This document shows positions 1-28,168 of a DNA stretch of 64,000 bases, one piece after another. A program made the position numbers and the translations under genes. The notes under the pieces were generated by a model that saw only the letters and a program-made list of their open reading frames with translations, was not told the DNA's origin and did no database searches. How positions within the stretch are numbered: position 1 is the stretch's first letter; the number at the start of each line of letters is the position of its first letter. Source of the DNA: Euglena gracilis (taxonomy: Eukaryota); contig CP154954.1 of NCBI GenBank assembly GCA_039621445.1, forward strand, positions 1,302,001-1,366,000, written 5' to 3'.

Positions 1-3011
<3,011 letters not shown>

Positions 3012-3161
3012 AATTATTATTGACGTATTGTAAATAATTTTTAACTATATCTTACTTAAAAAGCTTTTATTAATATTTATTTAGTTATGCTTTGTTGAGT
3101 AAACATAATGTTTCCACTTTGTTTTTTTAGTTTGACTACGAAAAATTATAATTTTTTTACA

Positions 3162-4987
3162 ATGACATTAGATGTATCAATTAGTACGTTACGAAGTTGC
3201 TTTTAGTTTATTAGGTATAAGTTAAAATAAAAGATAAGAAATAAAATTTTATTTATGTGTTTTTTTTAAGTTAAGTAAATTTTCCTTAAATTGTATGTTT
3301 TTGGCTATTCATATTAATTAAAAAATTGGTTAATCTAATTGGTTAATCTTAATATTTTCAATAATTTGTTAATAAGTTTAGTAATTTTTCAAGTAGAACG
3401 TAAATAGGTTTTATTTTGGATTTTTTTTTAATAAAGAATAAACTTTTGACATATTTTTATTTAAAATTAAATGTTTAAGCTGTATGTTTTTTTTTACTTG
3501 TACAGTTTTTTAAGAGAAATTTTAGTTCGCTAATATATTTCTTTTTTCATTAAATTCTAGTTTAAATCTTTTTTCTTGAGTATTTATTTTTCAAAAGTTA
3601 ATTTTTTAAATAATTTTCGTTTTTGGGGATTTTATTCTCTTTTTTAAACTTTTCTGTATGAAAAGTAAAATTATTTTATTTTTTGGTAATTGAAATTTAT
3701 TTATTATTTTAGTAGACCAATAAAAGCAAAGAGAATAGGTTTTAATTTAATTTTCTATAAATTTTTATTCTAAAGAAAATTTTACATTTTAGTTTTAATA
3801 AGTCTTGTTTTAGAGTTTTATATAATATAAAACAACCTAACCTTTTTTGCGATAGTATGTTGAAAAGCTAAATAAATCAACAATTTTTGTTTAGTTTGTG
3901 AATAAAATTTTCAAAATTGAATTTATATTTTCTACTTTACTTATTCCTGAAAGAGTTTTTTGGGAAAAACGAGTTGAAGAAATTATTCTTCCTACTTTAA
4001 GTGGTCAGATGGGGGTTCTTAAAGACCATGTGTGACACATTATTAAAACGTTTGTTAATTTTATTAATTATAATTTTTTGATAAATGCTTGTTTGAGATT
4101 TAACTTTACTTTTACTTTTAACCATATTAGTTAATTATTTTTATTTTCTGCATTAACATTTTGTTTGTGCGTGGTAGCTTTGAATATTTTCTAAAATTTA
4201 AAATTTACTTTTTTATAAATTATTTTTTATAAATAAGAAAAATTTAAAATTTTAAGATTAATATAATTTATAGTTTATTTTGAAAATGTATATTTAAGTC
4301 TTGTTTTAGAAGAATATATTTAAACTGTTATTTTATAACTATTTAAAGTGTTTTTACATGTTTTAGAAAAAATTTTTAATAGTTTTAATTTTTTTAAAAA
4401 CAATACTTGATAAACATAATTTGTAAGATATAATATTTGAATCTAAAAAATTTTTAAATTTGTATGCAATGGTAAGGAATGTGTATTTTTATGTAAATTA
4501 TTTACAAAATTTTTGTTTTTTTTTAGTACTTTTGATTCTATCACAATTTAGTTTTAGTCAATTTTTAAGCAAATTTTAAAAGATTTTTTGTTAAATGCCG
4601 TATGAGATTTAAATCTCCCGTACTGTATTGTTGGGGAAAAAATTAACTTAATTTATTAATTTTTAATGATAAATTTTTTTCTATCTAAATATTCCAATAT
4701 TGACTGGATTAGATATAGGTATAATCTTAGTTCGTCAAAAGTCTTCTTCCGATTGGACTAGTTTGGTTGTAACAGGAGGTTTTGCATTAATTAATAGCAA
4801 TAACGTTACTATATTAGTCAATGAAGCAGAATTTGGTTCCGAAATTAATGTAGAACAAGCACAGATTTCTTATAATTCATCTAAACATGCTTTAGAAATG
4901 AATAAAGATATTAAGAGAAAATTTGAATTAACTTTAAATTTAAAAAAAGCACGTGCTAGATTCCAGGTCACTCAACTTAAAAAGTAG
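3162..4987 (+). CDS. atpE: ATP synthase CF1 epsilon subunit; exons 3162-3183, 3941-4029, 4691-4987
   Basis: Spliced MTLDVSIIIPERVFWEKRVEEIILPTLSGQMGVLKDHIPILTGLDIG...; follows atpB. Confidence 0.95.
3184..3940 (+). other. atpE intron 1, group II twintron (internal intron ~3525-3926 inside domain VI of the external intron)
   Basis: Domain V-like AAGCTGTATG...TTGTACAGTT at ~3477-3507, then a second 5' splice-like GTTCG at 3525 and TTTAT end at 3926; removing it restores a short domain VI; fits the known Euglena atpE twintron. Confidence 0.7.
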
Positions 4988-5258
4988 TTTAATTTATTGT
5001 TTTATTAAATTATACGTTTTTAATTTATGTTGATAGATTTTTTATAATAAAAATTTTTTCAATTATTAATAGTTTAAAATTATGTTTGTTTTATAGTATA
5101 TTATTACTTAAACTATAAAATAGTGTAGTTAGTGTATTGAAACTGACAGTTTGATTTAAACGTTTTTGGTTTCGATTCACTCATTTATTCTTTAATTTAA
5201 TTAAATTAAAATTCAAAATTCGACTTTTAGGCAAGAATTTAAGTAAAAAAAAAATGTT

Positions 5259-5975
5259 ATGTTATCCGAATATGATAATCTAAACTTTGAAAAGAGCGTT
5301 GAAGGTAAAGGTTCTTTTCTTAATAAAAACCAAATAGAATCTTATTTGGCCTTACGAAAAAAGAAAGGAAAAATATATAATTTAGATTCTGAATTTTGGC
5401 GTGCTTTTTGTGAATCTCACAATATTAATATGGAATCTATTTTAAATTTATATATATCGAATAAATCTATTTCTAGTAAGGATTGTTAAAATACTATCTT
5501 ATATTGTTGGACGAGATTACCTTAAAGGCAGAACCGCTAACTTTTATGCTTACATTAAAGTGGATAAACGATTAGATACGCGCTCGACTCGTTTTTTGGA
5601 TTTGAGATTAAAAAAAGACTGTGAAGAGGTTACAGTTTGTGGAAATTATAGCGCAGCTAAGTCAGAAGAATATTCTATCGATTATATAATAAAAATGGTT
5701 TTAAGTCAGAGAGCATATGGTATACAAGATTTTACTGATTCGTTAGTAATTAGTCCGTGTTTGTCTGTAAAATTAGATGATCATTACCAAATGTTGTCAC
5801 TTTGGAACCGCATGATAAAACTAGCTGAAAAAGGCAATATTTTTAAGGCTCTATCTCTTTTAAAAAAAGAAAGGCCAGATTACTACATCAAAAAATTTGT
5901 AGCAATTAAAAAAATTTAAATGCAATTTTTATGTCTTTTAAAAATGATAAAAAATTAAATAGGGAGGTTTTATGA
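5259..5975 (+). pseudogene. Degenerate geminivirus-like Rep paralog (HUH-fold plus oligomerisation domain, no helicase), frameshifted
   Basis: Frame of the 5560 ORF is open from 5446: ILSYIVGRDYLKGRTANFYAYIKVDKRLDTRSTRFLDL...GNYSAAKSEEYSIDYIIK...KALSLLKKERPDYYIKKFVAIKKNLNAIF (tail from mirror copy); matches Rep GRS, motif III and central domain; 76-aa ORF at 5259 is the probable N-terminus. Confidence 0.7.
5961..5967 (+). promoter_or_regulatory. Shine-Dalgarno site for the Rep gene
   Basis: AGGGAGG 4 nt upstream of ATG 5972. Confidence 0.7.
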
Positions 5976-7195
5976 ATTTATTAAATACGAACAAAAATAA
6001 CATTGATAATAATATGAGACGTATTTCATCAAAAAAAGTTTTTTTAACCTATTCTTATTGTTCCGCAGATCTTTCAGAAATTTTAAATTTTTTTAAAAAT
6101 AAATTTGAAGTAAAATATGGACTAGTTGATTATGCGTTGGTAAGATAGTTTCATAAAACCGGATACCCTCATGTACACTCATATTTCGTTTTTATTAAAA
6201 AAATAGACACTAAGGCAGCAAATTTTTTTGATATATATGTTGATTCTAAAACTTATAGTGCATATGTTCAAACAGTTAATAACGAGAAAGATTTGTTGGA
6301 CTATTTAACAAAACAAATATTTAACTTTGTAGATGCTTCAAAAAATTTCATGGCTTCTCCATCAATTTTGAAAAAGTATGGTAAATATTTTGAATATTGT
6401 CCATTAGAAGAAAGGATGATTGAATTAGCAAAAAAAGGAGAGATAGCGGATGCTATGTTGTTGTTTGAAAAAGAAAAACCTTCTGAATTTGTATATAAAG
6501 GTGATGCTATTGAAAAACGACTTAGAAACATATATTTAAGCACAAGGTTAGGAGTTAAAGCAAAAATTAATTTTAATGACTATGTGATACCTCGAGATTT
6601 AAGGTGGATGTTAGACATTTATGAATCTTATCTGAATATGGGTGAAAATAAAGTATTTTTAATTTTAGGCGGTGAGCTTAGGTATTTAATAGATTTTTTT
6701 GAATCTTATTTGCAATTCAAAGGCTTTTATCTTCTAGTAGTTAAGGAAGCTAAGGATTTACTGCGATTTAGAAATACTTGTCATTACGATGCGATAATTT
6801 TTTCAGACTCTAGCATTTTAGAGTATCAAAATGTAGATGAGCTAAAAAATTTATTTAACTCTTTAGAAACAACGTTAAAAGTTCATAATCGAAAAAATAG
6901 TGTTAAAGTACTTTTATCTCCTGCTTTACCAAAAGCTATAATGTCGTCAAAACCTTATAAAGTTTTGGAACAATTTTTTAAAGAAAAAGGAATTGAAATG
7001 GAAGGCATACTACCTTATCAATTAAATGCCGATGATAAATTACTTCCCCCACATTTTCATAATTCAGAAATGGAAAAATCAAAGGAATACAGAGAACTTG
7101 AAAGTAAAACTAAAGTTTATATTCAAGAATTCTTAAAAAAAGCTAATATGAATGATGAAAATGAAGGAAATGATAATCAAAAAAATACTAATTAA
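5972..7195 (+). pseudogene. Geminivirus/pCRESS-like replication initiator Rep, 407 codons with one internal TAG (6146-6148); the 300-aa ORF is its C-terminal part
   Basis: ATG 5972 is in frame with 6293; motif I KVFLTYSYC (6041-6052), motif II R*FHKTGYPHVH, GRS-like NFFDI, motif III DYLTK (6302-6313), central AMLLFEKEKPSEFV...RLRNIY, eroded Walker B YDAIIFSD. Confidence 0.85.
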
Positions 7196-7273
7196 TACGT
7201 TTTTATTATATGTTATTATTTTATTAGTAATAAAAATATTACTAATTTGTTATTTGTTATAAATATGTTATAT

Positions 7274-7452
7274 TTATTCTAGGGCGGAAAATTAGTGGTA
7301 ACATTAATTTGTTAAAAAATGCCTCTTGACATCAAAAGTTCGAATTAATTTTGAAAAGCATGAGGCATTTTTTTAACAATTATTTTAAGTTTAATAAAAC
7401 TTAAAATTTTTTTTTAATAAATTTTTTTTTTTCTGTCCGCCCGGAGAATAAA
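7274..7452. repeat. Nested inverted repeats and hairpins downstream of Rep
   Basis: TTGTTAAAAAATGCCTC (7309-7325) pairs with GAGGCATTTTTTTAACAA (7362-7379); ATTTTAAGTTT/AAACTTAAAAT (7382-7407); outer TTATTCTAGGGCGGA pairs imperfectly with TCCGCCCGGAGAATAA. Confidence 0.8.
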
Positions 7453-7532
7453 AAAATTTAGAAAATTATTGCTCTATTATTTTTGGGAGAATAAAATGAA
7501 CAATTCAAAAACAAAACTTCAAAAAAAAAAAT

Positions 7533-7585
7533 AAAGTTCGCTGAGAATAAAATACCAGCGGACACGTTTTTGTTATTTTTTGTTA
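7533..7585 (+). repeat. Hairpin direct repeat, copy 1
   Basis: AAAGTTCGCTG-AGAATAAAATAC-CAGCGGAC-ACGTTTTTGTTATT. Confidence 0.85.
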
Positions 7586-7802
7586 TAAAGTTGTGATTAA
7601 AATCATTATAAATATTATTACTAGTATAATTATTATCAAATTAATTTTTATTTTATTGCTAACTTGTTATTAAATTGTTATTAAATAGCTAATTTGTTGT
7701 ATGAGCATTAAGCGTTAAATTAATTGGGTAGGTCAACAATAAACTATTGTTGAAAGAATATAGTTATAGTTAATTGGACAAATTTTTTATGGGAGAATAA
7801 TT

Positions 7803-9533
7803 ATGGTTCAAAAATTAAGAAAAAAATACAAATTCAAAATTAACACCACAAGTTCGAGATATTATGGTAGTTATAATATAACACGTAATTGGAGAATTTT
7901 AATAAGGACAAATTTTCAATCTTTAATAGAAATGGATTATTCTTTTATTAAAAAATGGCATGCAATAATAAACGACGATAAAATTTCTTTTATTATGTAT
8001 ACCATATGCAAATACGTGGATTTTCAGAAAGAAACCGATATTTTTATTAAAGCTTACCTCGAACTAAAGAAAAATTGTCGGCCAAAATATTTAGAAGACT
8101 TGTTTAGTTTTGATAAAAATACAATTATAAGTATCGAAAAAGCTAAAGGGGATAGTCCTGGCAATGTTGGTGGTTTTATTATTAATTGCCGAGACCCCGA
8201 AGAGGAACTTTTTTGGAATAGAATACCGCGCTATGAATCTAAAAATAATAACTGTTTAAGTTTTAAATTTATTACTCAATATAATTTAATTGAGAAAGCA
8301 AGGGGAAATTATTTTCTACCTAAAATTTTCCTTGAAGTTTTAAAAAAAGGTCCGGAAGAGATTGATAAAGAAAAAAGAAAAACTGTTTTAGCAAAAAAAA
8401 TCGATAATGACGAAGAAATAGAAAAAATAGAAATAAAAAAAGAAAAACAATTTGAAATTAAGAGCTTTTTCGAGGATTCAGAATTTTTAGCAATAACCGA
8501 AAAATATACAAAAAAGTGTGAGGATTTAATAAATATTAACAATAAAGGGAAAAAAATAAGAGATTTATTTTGCAATTATATTTTAGAATTATTAATTCTA
8601 GAAATAAATATTTTAAATTCTCAAAGTAAACCAAAATATTCGGATGTTTTTATTTGTACTTATAAAAAAAAAAAGAACAATAATGAAATAGAGTGGTATT
8701 TTAATTGGATGTCTATTGATAGAATCCTTAAACAATTTTTATATAAATCAATTAAACCGTGGCAAAATAAAAATATTGACGATATTAATCAAGGAGAAAT
8801 TTATAATATAATTACTAATAAATCACTTACAGATAATACAATAAATTCTGTTAAACGTTCTTTTCAAAATAGATTGAATGAAAATGTTAACTTAACGAAC
8901 GTAAGAAAATCATACAAAAAAATAAAATTTGTTTCGTTTAGTTTAACTAAGTTTTATAGCAATGAAAATAACGTTTTTTTTGTAAAATTAAAAATTGAGA
9001 TTTTCGTATGTGATAGTTTTAATACTAGCCTTATAAGAGATTTTCTTAATTTAATTACAAGTGAAGATATTCTATGGATAATGTATTCGGTAGAACCTGT
9101 AATATTAATACATACTGATTCCAAAGATAAAATTCTTCAAGAGACATATCTAAAATTAGAATGTAAAGCAGTAAAATCACAGCTATATTTAAATATATAT
9201 GTGATATTTGATGAAAAAAGAGTATGGACTAAAAATTTAGTTGAAAGCTTTTTTTCTACTATTAAAAATGGTAAAATTTTAAATATATCAAACGTACCAA
9301 AACTAGGAGGTCTTTGTTTTTGTTATGTTCTTAATAACCTTTTGCTAAAAGCAAATAAAAAAAATCAATTAGCTGAAATTAAAATATATCAGCATACAAA
9401 ATATGAAATTCCTTCCAAATATAAAATCAAATTTATCAACGAATCGCCATTATTTTTAAGAGAATATACTGGGTCTTTGAACTTCTTATATATTTTACTT
9501 AGTATGTTACTAGATAATATAACTAATAAATAA
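7803..9533 (+). CDS. Hypothetical 576-aa protein of the atpE-rbcL island, possibly with degenerate HUH/Rep-like domains
   Basis: Long intronless ORF, same translation in both copies; GGGAG SD-like site at 7791-7795. Confidence 0.75.
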   Translation: MVQKLRKKYKFKINTTSSRYYGSYNITRNWRILIRTNFQSLIEMDYSFIKKWHAIINDDKISFIMYTICKYVDFQKETDIFIKAYLELKKNCRPKYLEDLFSFDKNTIISIEKAKGDSPGNVGGFIINCRDPEEELFWNRIPRYESKNNNCLSFKFITQYNLIEKARGNYFLPKIFLEVLKKGPEEIDKEKRKTVLAKKIDNDEEIEKIEIKKEKQFEIKSFFEDSEFLAITEKYTKKCEDLININNKGKKIRDLFCNYILELLILEINILNSQSKPKYSDVFICTYKKKKNNNEIEWYFNWMSIDRILKQFLYKSIKPWQNKNIDDINQGEIYNIITNKSLTDNTINSVKRSFQNRLNENVNLTNVRKSYKKIKFVSFSLTKFYSNENNVFFVKLKIEIFVCDSFNTSLIRDFLNLITSEDILWIMYSVEPVILIHTDSKDKILQETYLKLECKAVKSQLYLNIYVIFDEKRVWTKNLVESFFSTIKNGKILNISNVPKLGGLCFCYVLNNLLLKANKKNQLAEIKIYQHTKYEIPSKYKIKFINESPLFLREYTGSLNFLYILLSMLLDNITNK

Positions 9534-9566
9534 TTAAGTTATTATATTATTCCATTAAAATTTTTT

Positions 9567-9754
9567 AAAGTCCACCAAGAATAAAATTCTAGTGGACACG
9601 TTTGTTATTAAATTGTTATTATTAGTATAATTATTATAAAATTATTTAATTAAAAATATAAATAATTTAGTTAGCTAGTTGTTATTAAAATGTTATTAAC
9701 TTTTTTAAAGTTCACCGAGAATAAAATCCTAGTGGACACGTTTTTGTTATTTTT
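9567..9754 (+). repeat. Hairpin direct repeat, copies 2 and 3 (140 bp apart)
   Basis: AAAGTCCACCA-AGAATAAAATTC-TAGTGGAC-ACGTTTGTTATT at 9567 and AAAGTTCACCG-AGAATAAAATCC-TAGTGGAC-ACGTTTTTGTTATT at 9707. Confidence 0.85.
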
Positions 9755-9788
9755 ATTGGTTTTAGTTTAAGGTCAGCAGGAACAACTT

Positions 9789-9977
9789 TTATAACCTTTT
9801 ATTATGGTATCGTACTTTAATAAATCTAAATTTAAGGAATTCTGCAACATATTCTAAAGATAAAGGGCATTTTGGAGATGTAAGAAATACTTTCCTAGCT
9901 GACAGTCGGTATTTAGCGTTTTTACCAACGTTTTTTTCAAATTTATTAAAGGAACTTTTCTTTGATTTTACTTTTTT
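9789..9977 (-). pseudogene. N-terminal Rep fragment (motif I), no start codon
   Basis: Minus-strand translation KNAKYRLSARKVFLTSPKCPLSLEYVAEFLK resembles geminiviral FRLxAKNYFLTYPKCSLxKEE. Confidence 0.75.
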
Positions 9978-10013
9978 CTAACGTAATTTTTTGATTAGTT
10001 TTATTTGGAGTTA

Positions 10014-10065
10014 TAACCTATTATTAATCTATTAACCTATTATTAATCTATTAACTTATTATTAT
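10014..10065 (+). repeat. 19-bp tandem repeat (~2.7 copies), iteron-like
   Basis: TAACCTATTATTAATCTAT at 10014 and 10033, partial copy at 10052. Confidence 0.8.
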
Positions 10066-10400
10066 ATTATTATTATTATTAGGGGGCAATTTACTTAGCA
10101 AATTCTCGGTCGTTACTGACAAAACGGGGTATGGTTTTGTAAACATTAACCACGCAATAACACAATCACAATATTGCACTAATAACTTAAAAAAGTCACT
10201 CACATGATATTATTACTAAATAAATGTAATCTGCCTCAGGCAAACGGTTTTGAACTATGTGTATGAAAAGTAATGAGAATTCTTTACAATTAAAGGGATG
10301 TAACATGTAAATCGTTAAATACGACTGCATACAACTCCTATTTAAGATACTATGTACGGGAAATAAGCAAAAAATAATACATTATTCAAGGAAAACTACT

Positions 10401-10610
10401 ATGGTACGTAAAAAAGATATATTAAATGAAAGGTTAAAAAATTACACAATAGAAACAGACGTGTCCCGTAAGGTGAGGCAAAAAGTTGCGTTCCGTTTAG
10501 CGGCTAAAAACATATTTTTGATGTATAATAAAGTTTCATCTTCATTTACTGTGGAGGATATTAGTTATTCTTTACTTGAGAAGCTGAAGCCATATGGTGT
10601 ATTATCGTAG
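10401..10610 (+). pseudogene. Truncated Rep N-terminus (69 aa, motif I)
   Basis: AFRLAAKNIFLMYNK matches the Rep motif I context; AAGGA SD-like site upstream; stops before motif II. Confidence 0.7.
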
Positions 10611-10802
10611 ATACGTATATTGACTGTGAAACTAACGTAACTGACTTATCTAGAGTAAAAGAAACTAAACGTGAGTATTATATTTTTAGACCTCAAATAG
10701 ACAAAAATTAGTAGCAAAACTTATTAATAATAATAATGTAAATTATCTATAAATAACTGTAAAGTGATTTTTCGAATATAATTTTTATTTTATTATTAAA
10801 AT

Positions 10803-12960
<2,158 letters not shown>

Positions 12961-13149
12961 TAATATAAATTTTATCTATTTTAAATTTATTAAATATTTT
13001 ACTAATAAATGTTTTATTTTATTTTTTATTTTTTATAATTAATTATTTTAAAATAATAAATTTTAAGTTTGTAATTGAATGTTATTTTGGCTTCATTTTG
13101 TTTTTGGTTGACATTTTACGGCATGCTTGTTTTTTTTCTTTTGCTTTTT

Positions 13150-17329
<4,180 letters not shown>

Positions 17330-17521
17330 ATTTTAATAATAAAATAAAAATTATATTCGAAAAATCACTTTACAGTTATTTATAGATAATTTACATTATT
17401 ATTATTAATAAGTTTTGCTACTAATTTTTGTCTATTTGAGGTCTAAAAATATAATACTCACGTTTAGTTTCTTTTACTCTAGATAAGTCAGTTACGTTAG
17501 TTTCACAGTCAATATACGTAT

Positions 17522-17731
17522 CTACGATAATACACCATATGGCTTCAGCTTCTCAAGTAAAGAATAACTAATATCCTCCACAGTAAATGAAGATGAAACT
17601 TTATTATACATCAAAAATATGTTTTTAGCCGCTAAACGGAACGCAACTTTTTGCCTCACCTTACGGGACACGTCTGTTTCTATTGTGTAATTTTTTAACC
17701 TTTCATTTAATATATCTTTTTTACGTACCAT
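17522..17731 (-). pseudogene. Truncated Rep N-terminus, mirror copy
   Basis: Same translation as 10401-10610. Confidence 0.7.
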
Positions 17732-18154
17732 AGTAGTTTTCCTTGAATAATGTATTATTTTTTGCTTATTTCCCGTACATAGTATCTTAAATAGGAGTTG
17801 TATGCAGTCGTATTTAACGATTTACATGTTACATCCCTTTAATTGTAAAGAATTCTCATTACTTTTCATACACATAGTTCAAAACCGTTTGCCTGAGGCA
17901 GATTACATTTATTTAGTAATAATATCATGTGAGTGACTTTTTTAAGTTATTAGTGCAATATTGTGATTGTGTTATTGCGTGGTTAATGTTTACAAAACCA
18001 TACCCCGTTTTGTCAGTAACGACCGAGAATTTGCTAAGTAAATTGCCCCCTAATAATAATAATAATATAATAATAAGTTAATAGATTAATAATAGGTTAA
18101 TAGATTAATAATAGGTTATAACTCCAAATAAAACTAATCAAAAAATTACGTTAG

Positions 18155-18343
18155 AAAAAAGTAAAATCAAAGAAAAGTTCCTTTAATAAATTTGAAAAAA
18201 ACGTTGGTAAAAACGCTAAATACCGACTGTCAGCTAGGAAAGTATTTCTTACATCTCCAAAATGCCCTTTATCTTTAGAATATGTTGCAGAATTCCTTAA
18301 ATTTAGATTTATTAAAGTACGATACCATAATAAAAGGTTATAA
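18155..18343 (+). pseudogene. N-terminal Rep fragment, mirror copy
   Basis: YRLSARKVFLTSPKCPLSLE starts at 18221. Confidence 0.75.
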
Positions 18344-18598
18344 AAGTTGTTCCTGCTGACCTTAAACTAAAACCAATAAAAATAACAAAAACGTGTCCAC
18401 TAGGATTTTATTCTCGGTGAACTTTAAAAAAGTTAATAACATTTTAATAACAACTAGCTAACTAAATTATTTATATTTTTAATTAAATAATTTTATAATA
18501 ATTATACTAATAATAACAATTTAATAACAAACGTGTCCACTAGAATTTTATTCTTGGTGGACTTTAAAAAATTTTAATGGAATAATATAATAACTTAA

Positions 18599-20329
18599 TT
18601 ATTTATTAGTTATATTATCTAGTAACATACTAAGTAAAATATATAAGAAGTTCAAAGACCCAGTATATTCTCTTAAAAATAATGGCGATTCGTTGATAAA
18701 TTTGATTTTATATTTGGAAGGAATTTCATATTTTGTATGCTGATATATTTTAATTTCAGCTAATTGATTTTTTTTATTTGCTTTTAGCAAAAGGTTATTA
18801 AGAACATAACAAAAACAAAGACCTCCTAGTTTTGGTACGTTTGATATATTTAAAATTTTACCATTTTTAATAGTAGAAAAAAAGCTTTCAACTAAATTTT
18901 TAGTCCATACTCTTTTTTCATCAAATATCACATATATATTTAAATATAGCTGTGATTTTACTGCTTTACATTCTAATTTTAGATATGTCTCTTGAAGAAT
19001 TTTATCTTTGGAATCAGTATGTATTAATATTACAGGTTCTACCGAATACATTATCCATAGAATATCTTCACTTGTAATTAAATTAAGAAAATCTCTTATA
19101 AGGCTAGTATTAAAACTATCACATACGAAAATCTCAATTTTTAATTTTACAAAAAAAACGTTATTTTCATTGCTATAAAACTTAGTTAAACTAAACGAAA
19201 CAAATTTTATTTTTTTGTATGATTTTCTTACGTTCGTTAAGTTAACATTTTCATTCAATCTATTTTGAAAAGAACGTTTAACAGAATTTATTGTATTATC
19301 TGTAAGTGATTTATTAGTAATTATATTATAAATTTCTCCTTGATTAATATCGTCAATATTTTTATTTTGCCACGGTTTAATTGATTTATATAAAAATTGT
19401 TTAAGGATTCTATCAATAGACATCCAATTAAAATACCACTCTATTTCATTATTGTTCTTTTTTTTTTTATAAGTACAAATAAAAACATCCGAATATTTTG
19501 GTTTACTTTGAGAATTTAAAATATTTATTTCTAGAATTAATAATTCTAAAATATAATTGCAAAATAAATCTCTTATTTTTTTCCCTTTATTGTTAATATT
19601 TATTAAATCCTCACACTTTTTTGTATATTTTTCGGTTATTGCTAAAAATTCTGAATCCTCGAAAAAGCTCTTAATTTCAAATTGTTTTTCTTTTTTTATT
19701 TCTATTTTTTCTATTTCTTCGTCATTATCGATTTTTTTTGCTAAAACAGTTTTTCTTTTTTCTTTATCAATCTCTTCCGGACCTTTTTTTAAAACTTCAA
19801 GGAAAATTTTAGGTAGAAAATAATTTCCCCTTGCTTTCTCAATTAAATTATATTGAGTAATAAATTTAAAACTTAAACAGTTATTATTTTTAGATTCATA
19901 GCGCGGTATTCTATTCCAAAAAAGTTCCTCTTCGGGGTCTCGGCAATTAATAATAAAACCACCAACATTGCCAGGACTATCCCCTTTAGCTTTTTCGATA
20001 CTTATAATTGTATTTTTATCAAAACTAAACAAGTCTTCTAAATATTTTGGCCGACAATTTTTCTTTAGTTCGAGGTAAGCTTTAATAAAAATATCGGTTT
20101 CTTTCTGAAAATCCACGTATTTGCATATGGTATACATAATAAAAGAAATTTTATCGTCGTTTATTATTGCATGCCATTTTTTAATAAAAGAATAATCCAT
20201 TTCTATTAAAGATTGAAAATTTGTCCTTATTAAAATTCTCCAATTACGTGTTATATTATAACTACCATAATATCTCGAACTTGTGGTGTTAATTTTGAAT
20301 TTGTATTTTTTTCTTAATTTTTGAACCAT
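18599..20329 (-). CDS. 576-aa hypothetical protein, mirror copy
   Basis: Same translation as 7803-9533. Confidence 0.75.
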   Translation of the reverse strand: MVQKLRKKYKFKINTTSSRYYGSYNITRNWRILIRTNFQSLIEMDYSFIKKWHAIINDDKISFIMYTICKYVDFQKETDIFIKAYLELKKNCRPKYLEDLFSFDKNTIISIEKAKGDSPGNVGGFIINCRDPEEELFWNRIPRYESKNNNCLSFKFITQYNLIEKARGNYFLPKIFLEVLKKGPEEIDKEKRKTVLAKKIDNDEEIEKIEIKKEKQFEIKSFFEDSEFLAITEKYTKKCEDLININNKGKKIRDLFCNYILELLILEINILNSQSKPKYSDVFICTYKKKKNNNEIEWYFNWMSIDRILKQFLYKSIKPWQNKNIDDINQGEIYNIITNKSLTDNTINSVKRSFQNRLNENVNLTNVRKSYKKIKFVSFSLTKFYSNENNVFFVKLKIEIFVCDSFNTSLIRDFLNLITSEDILWIMYSVEPVILIHTDSKDKILQETYLKLECKAVKSQLYLNIYVIFDEKRVWTKNLVESFFSTIKNGKILNISNVPKLGGLCFCYVLNNLLLKANKKNQLAEIKIYQHTKYEIPSKYKIKFINESPLFLREYTGSLNFLYILLSMLLDNITNK

Positions 20330-20936
20330 AATTATTCTCCCATAAAAAATTTGTCCAATTAACTATAACTATATTCTTTCAACAATAGTTTATTGTTGAC
20401 CTACCCAATTAATTTAACGCTTAATGCTCATACAACAAATTAGCTATTTAATAACAATTTAATAACAAGTTAGCAATAAAATAAAAATTAATTTGATAAT
20501 AATTATACTAGTAATAATATTTATAATGATTTTAATCACAACTTTATAACAAAAAATAACAAAAACGTGTCCGCTGGTATTTTATTCTCAGCGAACTTTA
20601 TTTTTTTTTTTGAAGTTTTGTTTTTGAATTGTTCATTTTATTCTCCCAAAAATAATAGAGCAATAATTTTCTAAATTTTTTTATTCTCCGGGCGGACAGA
20701 AAAAAAAAAATTTATTAAAAAAAAATTTTAAGTTTTATTAAACTTAAAATAATTGTTAAAAAAATGCCTCATGCTTTTCAAAATTAATTCGAACTTTTGA
20801 TGTCAAGAGGCATTTTTTAACAAATTAATGTTACCACTAATTTTCCGCCCTAGAATAAATATAACATATTTATAACAAATAACAAATTAGTAATATTTTT
20901 ATTACTAATAAAATAATAACATATAATAAAAACGTA

Positions 20937-22160
20937 TTAATTAGTATTTTTTTGATTATCATTTCCTTCATTTTCATCATTCATATTAGCTTTTTTTAAG
21001 AATTCTTGAATATAAACTTTAGTTTTACTTTCAAGTTCTCTGTATTCCTTTGATTTTTCCATTTCTGAATTATGAAAATGTGGGGGAAGTAATTTATCAT
21101 CGGCATTTAATTGATAAGGTAGTATGCCTTCCATTTCAATTCCTTTTTCTTTAAAAAATTGTTCCAAAACTTTATAAGGTTTTGACGACATTATAGCTTT
21201 TGGTAAAGCAGGAGATAAAAGTACTTTAACACTATTTTTTCGATTATGAACTTTTAACGTTGTTTCTAAAGAGTTAAATAAATTTTTTAGCTCATCTACA
21301 TTTTGATACTCTAAAATGCTAGAGTCTGAAAAAATTATCGCATCGTAATGACAAGTATTTCTAAATCGCAGTAAATCCTTAGCTTCCTTAACTACTAGAA
21401 GATAAAAGCCTTTGAATTGCAAATAAGATTCAAAAAAATCTATTAAATACCTAAGCTCACCGCCTAAAATTAAAAATACTTTATTTTCACCCATATTCAG
21501 ATAAGATTCATAAATGTCTAACATCCACCTTAAATCTCGAGGTATCACATAGTCATTAAAATTAATTTTTGCTTTAACTCCTAACCTTGTGCTTAAATAT
21601 ATGTTTCTAAGTCGTTTTTCAATAGCATCACCTTTATATACAAATTCAGAAGGTTTTTCTTTTTCAAACAACAACATAGCATCCGCTATCTCTCCTTTTT
21701 TTGCTAATTCAATCATCCTTTCTTCTAATGGACAATATTCAAAATATTTACCATACTTTTTCAAAATTGATGGAGAAGCCATGAAATTTTTTGAAGCATC
21801 TACAAAGTTAAATATTTGTTTTGTTAAATAGTCCAACAAATCTTTCTCGTTATTAACTGTTTGAACATATGCACTATAAGTTTTAGAATCAACATATATA
21901 TCAAAAAAATTTGCTGCCTTAGTGTCTATTTTTTTAATAAAAACGAAATATGAGTGTACATGAGGGTATCCGGTTTTATGAAACTATCTTACCAACGCAT
22001 AATCAACTAGTCCATATTTTACTTCAAATTTATTTTTAAAAAAATTTAAAATTTCTGAAAGATCTGCGGAACAATAAGAATAGGTTAAAAAAACTTTTTT
22101 TGATGAAATACGTCTCATATTATTATCAATGTTATTTTTGTTCGTATTTAATAAATTCAT
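20937..22160 (-). pseudogene. Geminivirus-like Rep with internal TAG, mirror copy
   Basis: Reverse complement of 5972-7195, same TAG. Confidence 0.85.
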
Positions 22161-22874
22161 AAAACCTCCCTATTTAATTTTTTATCATTTTTAAAAGACA
22201 TAAAAATTGCATTTAAATTTTTTTTAATTGCTACAAATTTTTTGATGTAGTAATCTGGCCTTTCTTTTTTTAAAAGAGATAGAGCCTTAAAAATATTGCC
22301 TTTTTCAGCTAGTTTTATCATGCGGTTCCAAAGTGACAACATTTGGTAATGATCATCTAATTTTACAGACAAACACGGACTAATTACTAACGAATCAGTA
22401 AAATCTTGTATACCATATGCTCTCTGACTTAAAACCATTTTTATTATATAATCGATAGAATATTCTTCTGACTTAGCTGCGCTATAATTTCCACAAACTG
22501 TAACCTCTTCACAGTCTTTTTTTAATCTCAAATCCAAAAAACGAGTCGAGCGCGTATCTAATCGTTTATCCACTTTAATGTAAGCATAAAAGTTAGCGGT
22601 TCTGCCTTTAAGGTAATCTCGTCCAACAATATAAGATAGTATTTTAACAATCCTTACTAGAAATAGATTTATTCGATATATATAAATTTAAAATAGATTC
22701 CATATTAATATTGTGAGATTCACAAAAAGCACGCCAAAATTCAGAATCTAAATTATATATTTTTCCTTTCTTTTTTCGTAAGGCCAAATAAGATTCTATT
22801 TGGTTTTTATTAAGAAAAGAACCTTTACCTTCAACGCTCTTTTCAAAGTTTAGATTATCATATTCGGATAACAT
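22157..22874 (-). pseudogene. Degenerate Rep paralog, mirror copy
   Basis: 138-aa ORF ends NREVL* with an ATGA overlap onto the Rep start; 76-aa ORF upstream. Confidence 0.7.
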
Positions 22875-23145
22875 AACATTTTTTTTTTACTTAAATTCTT
22901 GCCTAAAAGTCGAATTTTGAATTTTAATTTAATTAAATTAAAGAATAAATGAGTGAATCGAAACCAAAAACGTTTAAATCAAACTGTCAGTTTCAATACA
23001 CTAACTACACTATTTTATAGTTTAAGTAATAATATACTATAAAACAAACATAATTTTAAACTATTAATAATTGAAAAAATTTTTATTATAAAAAATCTAT
23101 CAACATAAATTAAAAACGTATAATTTAATAAAACAATAAATTAAA

Positions 23146-24968: not shown

Positions 24969-25118
24969 TGTAAAAAAATTATAATTTTTCGTAGTCAAAC
25001 TAAAAAAACAAAGTGGAAACATTATGTTTACTCAACAAAGCATAACTAAATAAATATTAATAAAAGCTTTTTAAGTAAGATATAGTTAAAAATTATTTAC
25101 AATACGTCAATAATAATT

Positions 25119-28168
<3,050 letters not shown>

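What the first reader, a model, noticed from the sequence alone, without database searches (positions are those of the whole stretch)
4990..10800. The atpE-rbcL spacer is a relic cluster of geminivirus/CRESS-type rolling-circle Rep genes in a euglenoid plastid genome
Seen: at least four separate reading frames carry Rep-like motifs (5446-5975 +, 5972-7195 +, 9789-9977 -, 10401-10610 +). They are mutually divergent, intronless in an intron-dense genome, two have SD sites, and they are interleaved with hairpin and iteron-like repeats. Established: FLTY / HxH / GRS (RFFD) / YxxK plus a central oligomerisation domain and SF3 helicase define geminivirus-like Reps, also found on phytoplasma and red-algal plasmids. 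Inference: one or more rolling-circle plasmids, ssDNA viruses or HUH transposons integrated repeatedly at this locus, implying a plastid-resident replicon family in Euglena. I recall these ORFs being annotated only as hypothetical, but cannot verify prior description.
Basis: partly seen in the sequence, partly recalled or inferred. Interest (0 to 1): 0.92.

Follow-up and report, generated by a model that had tools for sequence, protein, structure and literature searches.

The report
Virus-type Rep gene relics in plastid
The long-unexplained reading frames between atpE and rbcL in Euglena gracilis chloroplast DNA include four decayed copies of a geminivirus-type rolling-circle replication gene, so a small circular replicon once entered and integrated into this plastid genome.

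Summary
The next best of 1309 frames scores E = 1.7.

Frame 5972-7195, read through its single TAG, passes Pfam Gemini_AL1 (32.2 bits, cut-off 24). It models as a geminivirus-type HUH nuclease joined to an SF3-helicase fold.

None of the copies looks able to start replication:
- Copy B has the stop codon and has lost Walker A, Walker B, motif C and the arginine finger.
- Copy A lacks motif I and the HUH histidines.
- Copies C and D are N-terminal stubs.

The island also holds an orphan 576-codon ORF flanked by a three-copy repeat. Base composition matches resident plastid genes.

The DNA is Euglena gracilis. Public records call these ORFs "uncharacterized protein in rbcL-atpE intergenic region", and as deposited they give no Rep hit.

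The closest intact relatives are 1.5-3.1 kb circular replicons with an origin hairpin.

Repeated integration and a plastid-resident replicon remain unproven. I found no paper describing this.

The parts
4985..4987 (+). Left boundary: TAG stop of atpE. TAG is therefore a working stop codon in this genome.
   Evidence: atpE exon 4700-4987 ends ...LKK*.
5089..5120 (+). Candidate origin-like stem-loop 1: perfect 9-bp A/T-rich stem with a 14-nt loop holding TATTATTAC (fits NANTATTAC). Alternatively the ordinary 3' stem-loop of the atpE transcript.
   Evidence: Folding energy is not exceptional (z = -0.68).
5259..5489 (+). ORF of 76 codons, unknown.
   Evidence: no family. Best is a PHROG 'transcriptional regulator' at E = 0.061, not significant.
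5485..5973 (+). Rep copy A. It is 5'-truncated, equivalent to about residues 50-205 of copy B. Motif I is absent and the HUH histidines are lost (NFY). The G-N-Y and Y..K motifs and the central helical domain are kept. It ends at a TGA that overlaps the ATG of copy B when read with the A8 run of the mirror copy.
   Evidence: E = 6.8e-31, profile positions 74-207; tblastn 6e-13; 1-nt indel at 5908 between the two copies; the mirror-copy frame continues the homology.
5962..5967 (+). GGGAGG, a Shine-Dalgarno-like site 4-5 nt before the ATG of copy B.
5972..7195 (+). Rep copy B, near full length (407 codons) with one nonsense codon, TAG at 6146-6148, where 58 of 63 homologues have Glu. Motifs I (VFLTYS), II (HVH) and III (YLTK) are kept. 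Walker A, Walker B, motif C and the arginine finger are lost.
7309..7379 (+). Strong stem-loop downstream of copy B. Probably a transcript 3'-end structure.
   Evidence: -16.8 kcal/mol, z = -4.48, 0 of 200 shuffles fold as well.
7532..7580 (+). Copy 1 of the island-specific repeat (hairpin plus GGACACGTTT), upstream of ORF576.
7605..7630 (+). Candidate origin-like stem-loop 2: 6-bp stem with TATTATTAC in the loop. Weak.
   Evidence: It is not part of the minimum-energy fold.
7803..9533 (+). ORF576, an orphan 576-codon ORF preceded by GGGAG at 7791-7795. Public records hold it as ORF295 plus ORF274 in E. gracilis and as 586 aa in var. bacillaris.
9566..9614 (+). Copy 2 of the island-specific repeat, downstream of ORF576.
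9706..9754 (+). Copy 3 of the island-specific repeat.
9792..9977 (-). Rep copy C: an N-terminal stub on the opposite strand, with motif I (VFLTSPKC).
   Evidence: E = 5.4e-9, profile 33-71; 8e-4; Gemini_AL1 E = 0.082, below cut-off.
10014..10064 (.). 19-nt tandem repeat (TAACCTATTATTAATCTAT), 2.7 copies, between copies C and D. Iteron-like, function unknown.
10311..10607 (+). Rep copy D: an N-terminal stub (ATG at 10401) with motif I degraded to IFLMYN.
   Evidence: E = 9.5e-7, profile 19-77. Not found by tblastn with copy B or by Pfam.
10804..10848 (+). Right boundary: first exon of rbcL ([15 protein letters not shown]...).
   Evidence: read directly from the sequence.
17525..23140 (-). Mirror-image second copy of the whole island, created by the fold-back structure of the window. 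It is not an independent locus.
   Evidence: 17 differences over 12,965 aligned bases.

Best explanation
The 5.8-kb atpE-rbcL spacer of Euglena gracilis plastid DNA is an insertion island left by one or more small circular Rep-encoding rolling-circle replicons of the geminivirus-like (Gemini_AL1 nuclease + SF3 helicase) kind. Whether the donor was a virus or a capsid-less plasmid cannot be told.

What remains:
- one nearly full-length Rep gene (B) with a nonsense codon and a catalytically dead helicase;
- a 5'-truncated copy (A) placed directly in front of it;
- two N-terminal stubs (C and D) next to rbcL;
- an orphan 576-codon ORF bracketed by a three-copy repeat.

Shown: the homology, the domain decay, the plastid-like base composition, and the position between two plastid genes.

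Inferred: the DNA entered as a circular replicon, integrated by Rep-mediated or illegitimate recombination, was then duplicated or rearranged, and is now a slowly decaying passenger. It is probably co-transcribed with atpB-atpE, because A, B, ORF576 and D lie on that strand. It no longer replicates on its own.
For: Family identity
- Copy B read through its TAG hits Gemini_AL1 at E = 1.2e-7, 32.2 bits against a cut-off of 24.
- It hits solved geminivirus Rep domains by sequence: 6q1m 2.7e-6, 7vg8 3.5e-6, 1l2m 5.6e-4.
- It has 355 homologues at E <= 1e-3 among 1.84 billion representatives, 8 of them at <= 1e-30. The best are full length: P0004, 32% identity, E = 1.3e-43.
- 10 of 10 top full-length hits, and 61 of 64 members of alignment A3, carry Gemini_AL1.

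Fold
- The AlphaFold model on 64 sequences has pLDDT 88.2.
- Foldseek finds TYLCV Rep-DNA 7vg8 (TM 0.86 on the target, rmsd 2.0), wheat dwarf virus Rep and vientovirus full-length Rep. For the C-terminal half it finds SV40 T antigen, AAV Rep68 and papillomavirus E1.

Four copies and no more
- Shown by the profile search over all unique sequence.

Decay
- At columns where 85% or more of 63 homologues agree, B keeps T26, Y27, H67, H69, Y111 and K114.
- It has a stop at E59 and lacks G97/Y99, G238/K239, D278, N326 and R343/R344.
- A has NFY in place of HxH.
- The 58-codon N-terminal piece that ends at the TAG was called on 8 Logan contigs, the longest 9159 bp, so the stop is not peculiar to this window.

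Long residence in the plastid
- GC at codon positions 1/2/3 is .394/.244/.181 (B).364/.278/.216 (A) and .290/.236/.172 (ORF576). Resident rpoC2 has .363/.289/.155.
- Related viral contigs have 33-54% GC.

Donor type
- 30 IMG/VR relatives are mostly 2.0-2.8 kb. 19 of 30 have terminal repeats and 26 of 30 carry TAATATTAC.
- 5 of 10 second ORFs tested hit capsid families at E <= 0.01 (Gemini_coat, TNV_CP or Circo_capsid); 3 of them pass the family's cut-off.
- L031 is a 3.1-kb circular contig with a TAGTATTAC stem-loop upstream of, and on the same strand as, an intact Rep. That Rep is 28% identical to B over 335 aa, E = 3e-36.

Host and locus
- Cluster members are named 'Uncharacterized 35.4 kDa protein in rbcL-atpE intergenic region, Euglena gracilis' (P31920), or hypothetical proteins of var. 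bacillaris.
- The 6.4-kb stretch shares half or more of its sampled 31-mers with 20 run rows of 13 studies.
Against: - The ORFs are far longer than decay alone predicts. 300 shuffles of the island give a longest ORF of 81 codons on average and 144 at most. The island has 176 (A, mirror copy), 348 (B after the TAG) and 587 (ORF576, stop to stop).
- B and ORF576 have the only two SD-like sites followed by long ORFs. B keeps all three nuclease motifs.
- Strain variants of ORF576 stay open, with two substitutions: K51R and V350A.
- These points fit some retained function or very slow decay.
- The window is itself a chain of fold-back palindromes.
- No capsid gene, no intact Rep and no convincing origin were found. 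The two TATTATTAC hairpins are thermodynamically ordinary, and NANTATTAC is no commoner in the window than chance predicts (29 against 28.5 expected).
- The genomic location of the related fragments P0007/P0008 (71 of 82 and 45 of 59 positions identical) and P0022 (46 of 82) is unknown. Both metagenome scans found nothing.
Confidence: 0.8

Rival explanations
1. Domestication: one or more island ORFs are still expressed and do something for the plastid. Candidates are the nuclease half or the helicase-dead half of copy B, the central-domain protein A, and ORF576. Possible roles are DNA binding, origin or recombination functions, or regulation. They would then be maintained by selection rather than decaying.
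For: - Open frames of 176, 348 and 587 codons, against a maximum of 144 in 300 shuffles.
- SD-like sites before B and ORF576 only.
- Codon-position GC pattern like resident genes.
- Nuclease motifs I-III intact in B.
- ORF576 is intact here and in var. bacillaris, with 2 substitutions.
- Stop/start overlap ATGA between A and B in the mirror-copy reading.
- A paper passage reports an in-frame UAG in psbC of Lepocinclis, which the authors consider still functional (PMC6207741). A UAG may therefore not always be fatal in euglenophyte plastids.
Against: - TAG is the normal stop of the neighbouring atpE.
- All ATPase motifs of B are lost and the HUH histidines of A are lost.
- The closest related fragments (P0007 and P0008, both seen on a single contig of 1379 bp, probably the same one) are separate short ORFs, and P0008 ends out of register. 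The gene therefore looks broken in that relative too.
- ORF576 has no homologue outside its own cluster among 5.8 billion proteins and no predictable fold (pLDDT 32.7).
Confidence: 0.13
2. Artefact: the island is contaminant DNA, a mis-assembly, or sits only in a nuclear copy of plastid DNA, and is not part of the working plastid genome.
For: - The window is built of fold-back repeats (arms 5908-11929 and 16203-22224 are 100% complementary; further fold-backs near 34.9 kb and 46.35 kb). This is typical of chimeric long-read assemblies.
- No whole genome is held for this window.
Against: - Public protein records place these very ORFs in the rbcL-atpE intergenic region of two independently sequenced E. 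gracilis plastid genomes: P31920 / NP_041938.1, and AKL82393.1 / AKL82394.1.
- GC3 and overall GC match the resident genes.
- The stretch's words occur in 20 run rows of 13 studies.
- Both junctions are continuous in both copies within the window.
Confidence: 0.02
3. The copies come from an HUH transposon (IS91/ISCR, IS200/IS605 or Helitron type) that transposed repeatedly within the plastid genome, rather than from an episomal replicon.
For: Several copies are clustered at one locus, with repeats and hairpins between them.
Against: - Pfam gives only Gemini_AL1 and REP_ORF2-G2P for copy B and its relatives, with no transposase or Helitron families.
- The second domain is an SF3 helicase fold, not Pif1.
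- Relatives are 1.5-3.1 kb circular contigs with nonanucleotide origin hairpins, and some carry capsid genes.
- No copy lies elsewhere in the 31.7 kb of unique sequence.
Confidence: 0.02

Closest known systems
Uncultured small circular Rep-encoding replicons: P0004, P0005, P0006, P0009 on 1.75-2.7 kb contigs, and L031, a 3.1-kb circular contig binned in a 'proteobacterium' MAG
   Same: - Closest by sequence over the whole protein: 28-34% identity, E down to 1.3e-43.
- Same order of parts: Gemini_AL1 nuclease, helical central domain, SF3 helicase.
- In L031 the origin hairpin lies upstream of Rep on the same strand, as does candidate hairpin 1 in the island.
   Different: - These relatives are intact: Walker A GxxGxGK[ST], Walker B DD, motif C N and the arginine finger are all present.
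- They are free circles (L031 has a 26-nt terminal repeat) and have 32-36% GC.
- Many have N-terminal RGRP (AT-hook-like) extensions that copy B lacks.
- Their hosts are unknown.
Rep of Geminiviridae / Genomoviridae (Pfam Gemini_AL1, PF00799; structures 7vg8, 6we0, 6q1m, 1l2m)
   Same: - Nuclease domain motifs I, II and III.
- Fold match with TM 0.81-0.86 on the target.
- Pfam gathering score passed.
   Different: - Only 21-25% identity.
- The geminivirus central-domain family Gemini_AL1_M is matched by 1 of 64 family members and not by copy B.
- The FHGNY (GRS-like) motif is lost in B.
- There is no coat protein gene, no TAATATTAC origin, and the copies are integrated and dead.
Geminivirus-like Rep plasmids of red algae (Pyropia/Porphyra pulchra) and phytoplasmas (pCRESS9), and plasmid-derived inserts in red-algal plastid genomes
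   Same: - Capsid-less replicons carrying a virus-derived Rep in or beside an alga.
- Foreign plasmid DNA does integrate into plastid genomes.
- Sources: Kazlauskas 2019, PMC6668415, passages; Lee 2016, PMC4814812, section 8 read.
   Different: - The plastid inserts described in the Lee 2016 passages and legends I saw are homologues of other plasmid ORFs, such as a PolB-like domain. For the replicase, section 8 names as organellar homologue only Phytophthora sojae mitochondrial orf98.
- tblastn of copy B against 72,556 PLSDB plasmids found nothing at E <= 1e-3.
- The host here is a euglenophyte with a secondary green plastid.
Endogenous CRESS/geminivirus-like Rep sequences in eukaryotic nuclear genomes (recalled from the literature; only the nuclear Nicotiana and Reticulomyxa examples were seen, in PMC4814812 section 8)
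   Same: Fossil Rep genes with stops and truncations, often in several copies at one locus.
   Different: - The compartment is a plastid genome.
- The sequence is fully adapted to plastid base composition.
- SD-like translation signals are present.
- The copies share a strand with a plastid operon.

Membership tests
HUH Rep of CRESS-DNA replicons (Gemini_AL1 type) | Motif I (uuTu, FLTY-like) | tested here: met
   B has VFLTYS, C has VFLTSPKC, D has IFLMYN (degraded). Absent from A.
HUH Rep of CRESS-DNA replicons (Gemini_AL1 type) | Motif II (HUH, metal-binding histidines) | tested here: met
   B has H67-V-H69, as do 61 of 63 homologues. Not met in A (N-F-Y). C and D end before it.
HUH Rep of CRESS-DNA replicons (Gemini_AL1 type) | Motif III (YxxK catalytic tyrosine) | tested here: met
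   B has Y111-L-T-K114 (62 and 59 of 63 homologues agree). A has Y-I-I-K.
HUH Rep of CRESS-DNA replicons (Gemini_AL1 type) | Pfam PF00799 at or above the gathering score | tested here: met
   B read through the TAG scores 32.2 bits against 24. The pieces taken separately, and the proteins as deposited, give no hit. C scores 13.3 bits, below the cut-off.
HUH Rep of CRESS-DNA replicons (Gemini_AL1 type) | Nuclease fold of geminivirus Rep | tested here: met
   Foldseek: 7vg8_A E = 9.6e-9, TM 0.86, rmsd 2.0; 6we0_A TM 0.81. The model is driven by the alignment, so it reflects the family.
HUH Rep of CRESS-DNA replicons (Gemini_AL1 type) | Active SF3 helicase (Walker A, Walker B, motif C, arginine finger) | tested here: not met
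   The fold is present (SV40 LTag, AAV Rep68, E1). The residues are not: GK is replaced by YL, the first D of Walker B by S, N by S, and RR by ME.
HUH Rep of CRESS-DNA replicons (Gemini_AL1 type) | Uninterrupted reading frame | tested here: not met
   TAG at 6146-6148 in B. A, C and D are fragments.
Circular Rep-encoding replicon (virus or plasmid) | Origin stem-loop with NANTATTAC in the loop | tested here: inconclusive
   - Two hairpins have TATTATTAC in the loop (5089-5120 and 7605-7630), against none in 25.9 kb outside the island.
- 1000 Markov simulations give P(two or more) = 0.003.
- The scan settings were chosen after a first look.
- Fold z-scores are -0.68 and +1.14, and the motif count is at chance level.
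Circular Rep-encoding replicon (virus or plasmid) | Free circular form | not testable with these tools
The longest contigs on record for the island proteins are 5850 and 9159 bp, which says nothing either way.
Geminiviridae proper | Coat protein gene (Gemini_coat) and Gemini_AL1_M central domain | tested here: not met
   No Pfam hit for ORF576, ORF76 or any island ORF. Gemini_AL1_M is not matched by B, and by only 1 of 64 family members.
Endogenous or integrated element in an organelle genome | Flanked by resident genes, host-like composition, decayed genes | tested here: met
   atpE stop at 4987 and rbcL start at 10804. GC3 is 0.17-0.22, like resident genes. Decay is shown. Public records name the locus.
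HUH transposons (IS91, IS200/605, Helitron) | Transposase-type HUH domain (Y1/Y2 transposase or Helitron RepHel with Pif1 helicase) | tested here: not met
   No such Pfam family at E <= 10 for B, or at E <= 0.001 in 64 relatives. The helicase fold is SF3.

The most novel reading that the evidence does not exclude
Euglena plastids hosted, and perhaps still host at low copy, a multipartite CRESS-type rolling-circle replicon adapted to life inside the organelle.

On this reading the island is a head-to-tail, origin-to-origin concatemer of unit-length components:
- a Rep unit of about 2.5 kb (TATTATTAC hairpin at 5099 to the next at 7613);
- an ORF576 unit of about 2.0 kb (7613 to the degenerate copy near 9614).

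Each unit would be delimited by the nick site, as expected if Rep itself catalysed integration. ORF576 would then be the replicon's second, so far unknown, gene.

The Shine-Dalgarno-like sites before Rep B and ORF576 are absent from the resident plastid gene starts that I could read. They would be the mark of a replicon that was translated on plastid (bacterial-type) ribosomes, not of a virus from the cytoplasm or nucleus.
Probability: 0.15. Interest if true: 0.85.

Novelty: new variant of a known kind. Interest (0 to 1): 0.62.

Why it matters
Plastid genomes very rarely take up foreign DNA. No rolling-circle Rep replicon is known from a euglenophyte plastid, an organelle behind three membranes (the membrane number is textbook knowledge, not tested here).

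This result gives an identity to orphan ORFs that have sat in a model chloroplast genome since 1993, in the record cited as Hallick et al. 1993 in PMC3534033. I could not read that paper itself.

The result shows that a geminivirus-like replicon reached the stroma, integrated, and stayed long enough to take on plastid base composition.

It makes three questions directly testable:
- When was it acquired? Survey the atpE-rbcL spacer across Euglenaceae.
- Do free circles still exist?
- Could intact relatives of this Rep, together with their origin, drive an episome in Euglena plastids? That would be a useful genetic tool.

It also shows how a single nonsense codon can hide a domain from routine annotation. 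None of the deposited protein pieces hits the Rep family, but the read-through does.

Tried and rejected
Searches and jobs that gave nothing
Junctions, the TAG, circular joints and expression were therefore not checked with reads. 'No RNA holder listed'.
- No whole genome is held for the window.
- The search for homologous proteins with copy B found only itself. With ORF576 it found only its own cluster. The 'shorter' search found one 129-aa fragment, P0155.
- Metagenome contig scans with the 348-aa part of B and with P0007 found no relative. The context of the related fragments stays unknown.
- A scan of viral contigs with P0005 alone found nothing. Alignment A1 was too divergent for pattern design.
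- PLSDB plasmids by tblastn: no match.
- Rfam and tRNA scans of 1-14100: nothing.
- ORF576: Pfam gave only a weak ParE_like hit, E = 0.013, below cut-off. NCBIfam, PHROGs, PDB sequences, hhalign against the Rep family (probability 0.3) and the ESM Atlas gave nothing. The single-sequence AlphaFold model has pLDDT 32.7 and is unusable.
- No ORF of the related replicons resembles ORF576 or ORF76.

Ideas considered and dropped
- Canonical TAATATTAC origin: 5 sites in the window against 3.95 expected, and the only one in the island lies inside ORF576.
- The three-copy repeat hairpins as origins: the loops lack the nonanucleotide and the folds are weak (z = -1.39, -2.41, -0.93).
- D and A as the two ends of one Rep gene opened by circular integration. 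D ends at profile position 77 and A starts at 74. Dropped because 500 bp separate atpE from A, and because I found no evidence that D and A were ever one gene.
- Single versus multiple acquisition. The quick tree separates A from the B clade, but the constrained tree is 59 log-likelihood units better and p-AU = 0.856. The careful 28-row tree leaves A unplaced. The question is unresolved.

Literature
- Searches on euglen + geminivir (10 papers, none relevant), on Euglena with Rep-encoding / ssDNA virus / endogenous (none of the 12 listed papers holds 'Euglena'), and searches found no description of this.
- Hallick 1993 (PMC331456) is not held.
- Our earlier findings: nothing.

Full report
**What is in the sequence**

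The region lies between the TAG stop of atpE (4985-4987) and the first exon of rbcL, which starts at 10804 with [15 protein letters not shown]. It is 20-29% G+C, like the rest of the window. On the + strand it holds, in order:
- a 76-codon ORF (5259-5489);
- a 157-codon open frame (5446-5916);
- a 407-codon frame (5972-7195) with a single in-frame stop, TAG at 6146-6148;
- a 576-codon ORF (7803-9533);
- a 99-codon frame (10311-10607).

A 62-codon frame lies on the - strand (9792-9977).

**Are the four frames Rep genes?**

Taken as separate ORFs, 0 of 8 pieces gave a Rep family in Pfam. Read through the TAG with X (P0001), the 5972-7195 frame hits Gemini_AL1 (PF00799) at E = 1.2e-7 and 32.2 bits, above the gathering score of 24, over residues 17-115. 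It also hits solved geminivirus Rep nuclease domains by sequence: wheat dwarf virus 6q1m at 2.7e-6, 7vg8 at 3.5e-6 and TYLCV 1l2m at 5.6e-4.

A full HMMER pass over 1.84 billion representative proteins found 355 homologues at E <= 1e-3, 77 at <= 1e-10 and 8 at <= 1e-30. The best are full-length matches, such as P0004: 450 aa, 32% identity, residues 16-392, E = 1.3e-43. All 10 top full-length hits tested carry Gemini_AL1 above its cut-off. So do 61 of the 64 members of alignment A3, at E <= 0.001.

I then built a profile from 95 of these homologues. The selection was 300-600 aa, with the window's own proteins and near-identical ones left out. I searched it against 1309 stop-to-stop frames covering all unique sequence in the window.

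| Frame | Name used here | E-value | Profile positions |
|---|---|---|---|
| 6149-7192(+) | copy B, after the TAG | 2.8e-52 | 85-410 |
| 5446-5916(+) | copy A | 6.8e-31 | 74-207 |
| 5963-6145(+) | copy B, before the TAG | 5.4e-14 | 35-83 |
| 9792-9977(-) | copy C | 5.4e-9 | 33-71 |
| 10311-10607(+) | copy D | 9.5e-7 | 19-77 |
| best other frame | none | 1.7 | n/a |

An AlphaFold model of copy B on the 64-sequence alignment has mean pLDDT 88.2. Foldseek against the PDB returns:
- vientovirus full-length Rep (9pqq, 7e-9);
- TYLCV Rep-DNA (7vg8; TM 0.86 on the target, rmsd 2.0 Å);
- wheat dwarf virus Rep (TM 0.81-0.84);
- for the C-terminal half, the SF3 helicases SV40 T antigen, AAV Rep68 and papillomavirus E1.

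The model reflects the family alignment, so it confirms family and fold, not activity.

**State of the copies**

I looked at alignment columns where at least 85% of the 63 homologues agree.
- Copy B keeps motif I (T26, Y27 in VFLTYS), motif II (H67, H69) and motif III (Y111, K114).
- It has the stop where 58 of 63 have Glu59.
- It lacks G97/Y99 of the FHGNY motif, G238/K239 (Walker A), D278 (Walker B), N326 (motif C) and R343/R344 (arginine finger).

The helicase is therefore a fold without its catalytic residues. TAG is a working stop here, because atpE ends with it. The 58-residue N-terminal piece ending at this TAG was called on 8 Logan contigs, so the stop is not an error peculiar to this window.

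Copy A starts after motif I, has N-F-Y in place of H-x-H, and keeps G-N-Y, Y-I-I-K and the central helical domain.

The window contains the island twice, as mirror images. The two copies differ at 17 positions over 12,965 aligned bases. One difference is an A7/A8 run at 5908. With A8 (mirror copy, 22160-22687 on the - strand), frame A runs 176 codons, its extra residues continue the homology (KNLNAIFMS against KRLRNIYLS in B), and it ends at a TGA overlapping the ATG of copy B. Copies C and D are N-terminal stubs of about 40-60 residues with motif I (VFLTSPKC; IFLMYN).

The copies are as different from each other as from outside relatives. A/B share 36 of 133 positions, while A's best outside match shares 45 of 132. 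B/C share 14 of 37, B/D 10 of 41 and C/D 11 of 37.

**One acquisition or several?**

This is unresolved.
- A quick tree of 98 rows puts B with two database fragments (P0007, P0022; support 99) and puts A elsewhere in the same 43-row clade. The rows were those with at least 110 of 156 columns filled, plus the four focus rows.
- The tree constrained to hold A with the B clade was 59 log-likelihood units better than the free quick search, and the AU test gives p = 0.856.
- A careful mixture-model tree of 28 rows that I picked from the top hits leaves A without a supported place.

**The rest of the island**

ORF576 has no relative outside its own 90% cluster among 5.8 billion proteins. It has no Pfam, NCBIfam, PHROG or PDB match and no similarity to the Rep profile, and its single-sequence model is unusable (the Atlas search also gave nothing).

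ORF576 is bracketed by an island-specific repeat at 7532-7580, 9566-9614 and 9706-9754 (71-90% identity). The repeat contains a short hairpin, and two stem positions change on both sides between copies, which I read directly from the sequences. It occurs nowhere else in the unique sequence. Its folds are weak (z = -1.39, -2.41, -0.93).

Other features:
- A strong stem-loop follows copy B at 7309-7379 (z = -4.48).
- A 19-nt tandem repeat lies between C and D.
- GGGAGG precedes the ATG of copy B, and GGGAG precedes the ATG of ORF576. These are the only SD-like cores in 31.7 kb that are followed by an ATG opening 50 or more codons.

**Possible origins**

TAATATTAC is at chance level: 5 sites against 3.95 expected, and the only island site lies inside ORF576. 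I scanned for NANTATTAC lying in a loop closed by a perfect stem of 6 bp or more. The scan found two hairpins, both with TATTATTAC on the + strand: 5089-5120 (9-bp stem) and 7605-7630 (6-bp stem). It found none in the other 25.9 kb of unique sequence. In 1000 first-order Markov simulations of the island, two or more occurred in 0.3% of runs.

Against this:
- I fixed the scan settings after a looser first look.
- The stems are nearly all A/T and fold no better than shuffles (z = -0.68 and +1.14).
- NANTATTAC itself is not enriched (29 sites against 28.5 expected).
- Hairpin 1 could simply be the 3' stem-loop of the atpE transcript.

I treat these as candidates only. The spacings are suggestive: 2514 bp from 5099 to 7613, and 2001 bp on to a degenerate copy near 9614 (repeat family D7). 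They underlie the novel reading but prove nothing.

**How long has it been there, and is it dead?**

Codon-position G+C in A, B and ORF576 follows the pattern of weakly expressed resident genes. B has .394/.244/.181 and rpoC2 has .363/.289/.155. Related free replicons have 32-54% G+C. This argues for long residence and against contamination.

The frames are far longer than chance allows. In 300 shuffles of the island the longest ORF averaged 81 codons with a maximum of 144. The island has 176, 348 and 587. That fits either slow decay or some retained use.

Related fragments exist in public data:
- P0007 and P0008 share 71 of 82 and 45 of 59 positions with copy B. Each was seen on a single contig of 1379 bp, probably the same one.
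- P0022 shares 46 of 82 positions and has Glu at the TAG position.

P0007 and P0008 are separate short ORFs and P0008 ends out of register, so the gene looks broken in that relative too. I could not recover their DNA, so I do not know whether they are plastid copies.

**Whose DNA is it, and what was known?**

Cluster look-ups returned public names:
- P31920 / NP_041938.1, 'Uncharacterized 35.4 kDa protein in rbcL-atpE intergenic region', Euglena gracilis. This is the first 295 codons of ORF576.
- A 274-aa second half of ORF576.
- 586-aa and 333-aa 'hypothetical proteins' of E. gracilis var. bacillaris.

The window matches the E. gracilis versions at the two variable ORF576 positions. As deposited, none of these proteins (P0156, P0002, P0016, P0157, P0159) hits a Rep family in Pfam. 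This explains why the identity went unnoticed: the nonsense codon cuts the nuclease domain in two.

atpE and rbcL are neighbours in basal euglenophytes as well (cluster 'petB atpB atpE / rbcL' in Eutreptiella; PMC5572947, passage seen). The island is therefore an insertion into an old spacer.

My literature searches found no paper linking euglenophyte plastids with Rep or geminivirus-like genes. The library covers open-access papers and bioRxiv only, and Hallick et al. 1993 is not held.

**Closest relatives and known parallels**

The nearest intact proteins sit on contigs of 1.5-2.7 kb. Thirty IMG/VR relatives are mostly 2.0-2.8 kb; 19 of 30 have terminal repeats and 26 of 30 carry TAATATTAC. 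Of 10 second ORFs tested, 5 hit capsid families at E <= 0.01 (Gemini_coat, TNV_CP or Circo_capsid) and 3 of these pass the family's cut-off. One, L008, is a true geminivirus by its coat protein.

L031 is a 3136-bp contig binned in a 'proteobacterium' MAG. It is circular (26-nt terminal repeat) and 32-36% G+C. It has a GC-rich stem-loop with TAGTATTAC upstream of, and on the same strand as, an intact 615-aa Rep with AT-hook-like RGRP motifs. That Rep is 28% identical to copy B over 335 residues.

Only 1 of 64 family members has the geminivirus central domain Gemini_AL1_M, so this is a geminivirus-like clade, not Geminiviridae.

From the literature:
- Kazlauskas et al. 2019 place geminiviruses and genomoviruses with phytoplasma plasmids, and CRESSV6 with Pyropia pulchra plasmids. 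They argue that viruses gave rise to those plasmids (PMC6668415, passages).
- Lee et al. 2016 show plasmid-derived inserts in red-algal plastid genomes. For the geminivirus-like replicase itself they name as organellar homologue a Phytophthora sojae mitochondrial orf98 (PMC4814812, section 8 read, passages).
- Copy B has no tblastn match in PLSDB plasmids.

**Verdict**

The atpE-rbcL spacer of E. gracilis plastid DNA is a graveyard of geminivirus-like Rep genes, together with an orphan ORF and element-specific repeats.

No copy has the residues needed to initiate rolling-circle replication, so the best reading is an old, integrated and now inert replicon (confidence 0.8). The unusually long open frames and the SD-like sites keep a domestication scenario alive (0.13).

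Still open:
- whether the donor was a virus or a plastid-resident plasmid;
- whether it arrived once or several times;
- whether the TATTATTAC hairpins are fossil origins.

Noticed in passing
window 1-57912: The window is a chain of fold-back (inverted) repeats of one plastid segment (rpoC2 ... psbB ... petB-atpB-atpE-island-rbcL). Arms 1-4239 and 23891-28129, and arms 5908-11929 and 16203-22224, are 100% complementary. Further turn-rounds lie near 34.9 kb and 46.35 kb (263 nt between the arms). The copies differ by a few indels, for example SSIAAVFW against SSSIAAVFW in psbB. This looks like a chimeric long-read assembly, but real palindromic plastid DNA multimers are not excluded.
   Followed up: partly
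window 12961-15170: The first fold-back is not symmetric. 2210 nt lie between the innermost arms and carry an rbcL exon on the - strand (14685-15104). The mirror copy therefore runs further into rbcL than the first copy does.
   Followed up: no
window 5902-5908 and the mirror position near 22224: An A7 against A8 homopolymer difference between the two copies changes the reading frame of Rep copy A (157 against 176 codons). The A8 reading continues the homology.
   Followed up: yes
window 7803-9533: ORF576 is continuous here and in var. bacillaris (586 aa). In the E. gracilis reference records it is held as two proteins (295 aa ending KKKRTIMK, and 274 aa from MSIDRILK), split at a lysine/poly-A run. 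This is likely a frameshift in the old sequence or a strain difference.
   Followed up: partly
P0155 (JGI metagenome protein, contig 1106 bp) against window about 8709-9002: P0155 is identical to ORF576 residues 303-400 and then diverges completely. The 31-residue tail is not encoded anywhere in the window. This could be a rearranged copy, another strain's arrangement, or a chimeric contig.
   Followed up: partly
window 5003-5094 and 7186-7277: The 92 nt just after the atpE stop and the 92 nt just after the stop of Rep copy B are 71% identical without gaps. This may be a duplicated 3' region or an old insertion boundary. Unexplained.
   Followed up: no
P0005, P0006, P0010, P0013; L031 402-2246: The closest intact Reps carry N-terminal lysine-rich extensions with RGRP (AT-hook-like) motifs. 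L031 also has a long Gly/Ser/Asn/Pro-rich C-terminal tail. This hints at a eukaryotic, AT-rich-DNA setting for these replicons. Copy B lacks these parts.
   Followed up: no
L031 (whole contig, 3136 bp): This is a circular CRESS-type replicon with a TAGTATTAC hairpin and 32-36% G+C, filed inside a MAG labelled as an uncultured proteobacterium. It is probably a binning artefact rather than a bacterial element.
   Followed up: partly
literature, PMC6207741: The authors report an in-frame UAG at codon 7 of psbC in both Lepocinclis tripteris strains and consider the gene still functional. If UAG can be bypassed or edited in euglenophyte plastids, the TAG in copy B may be less disabling than it looks (passage seen).
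   Followed up: no
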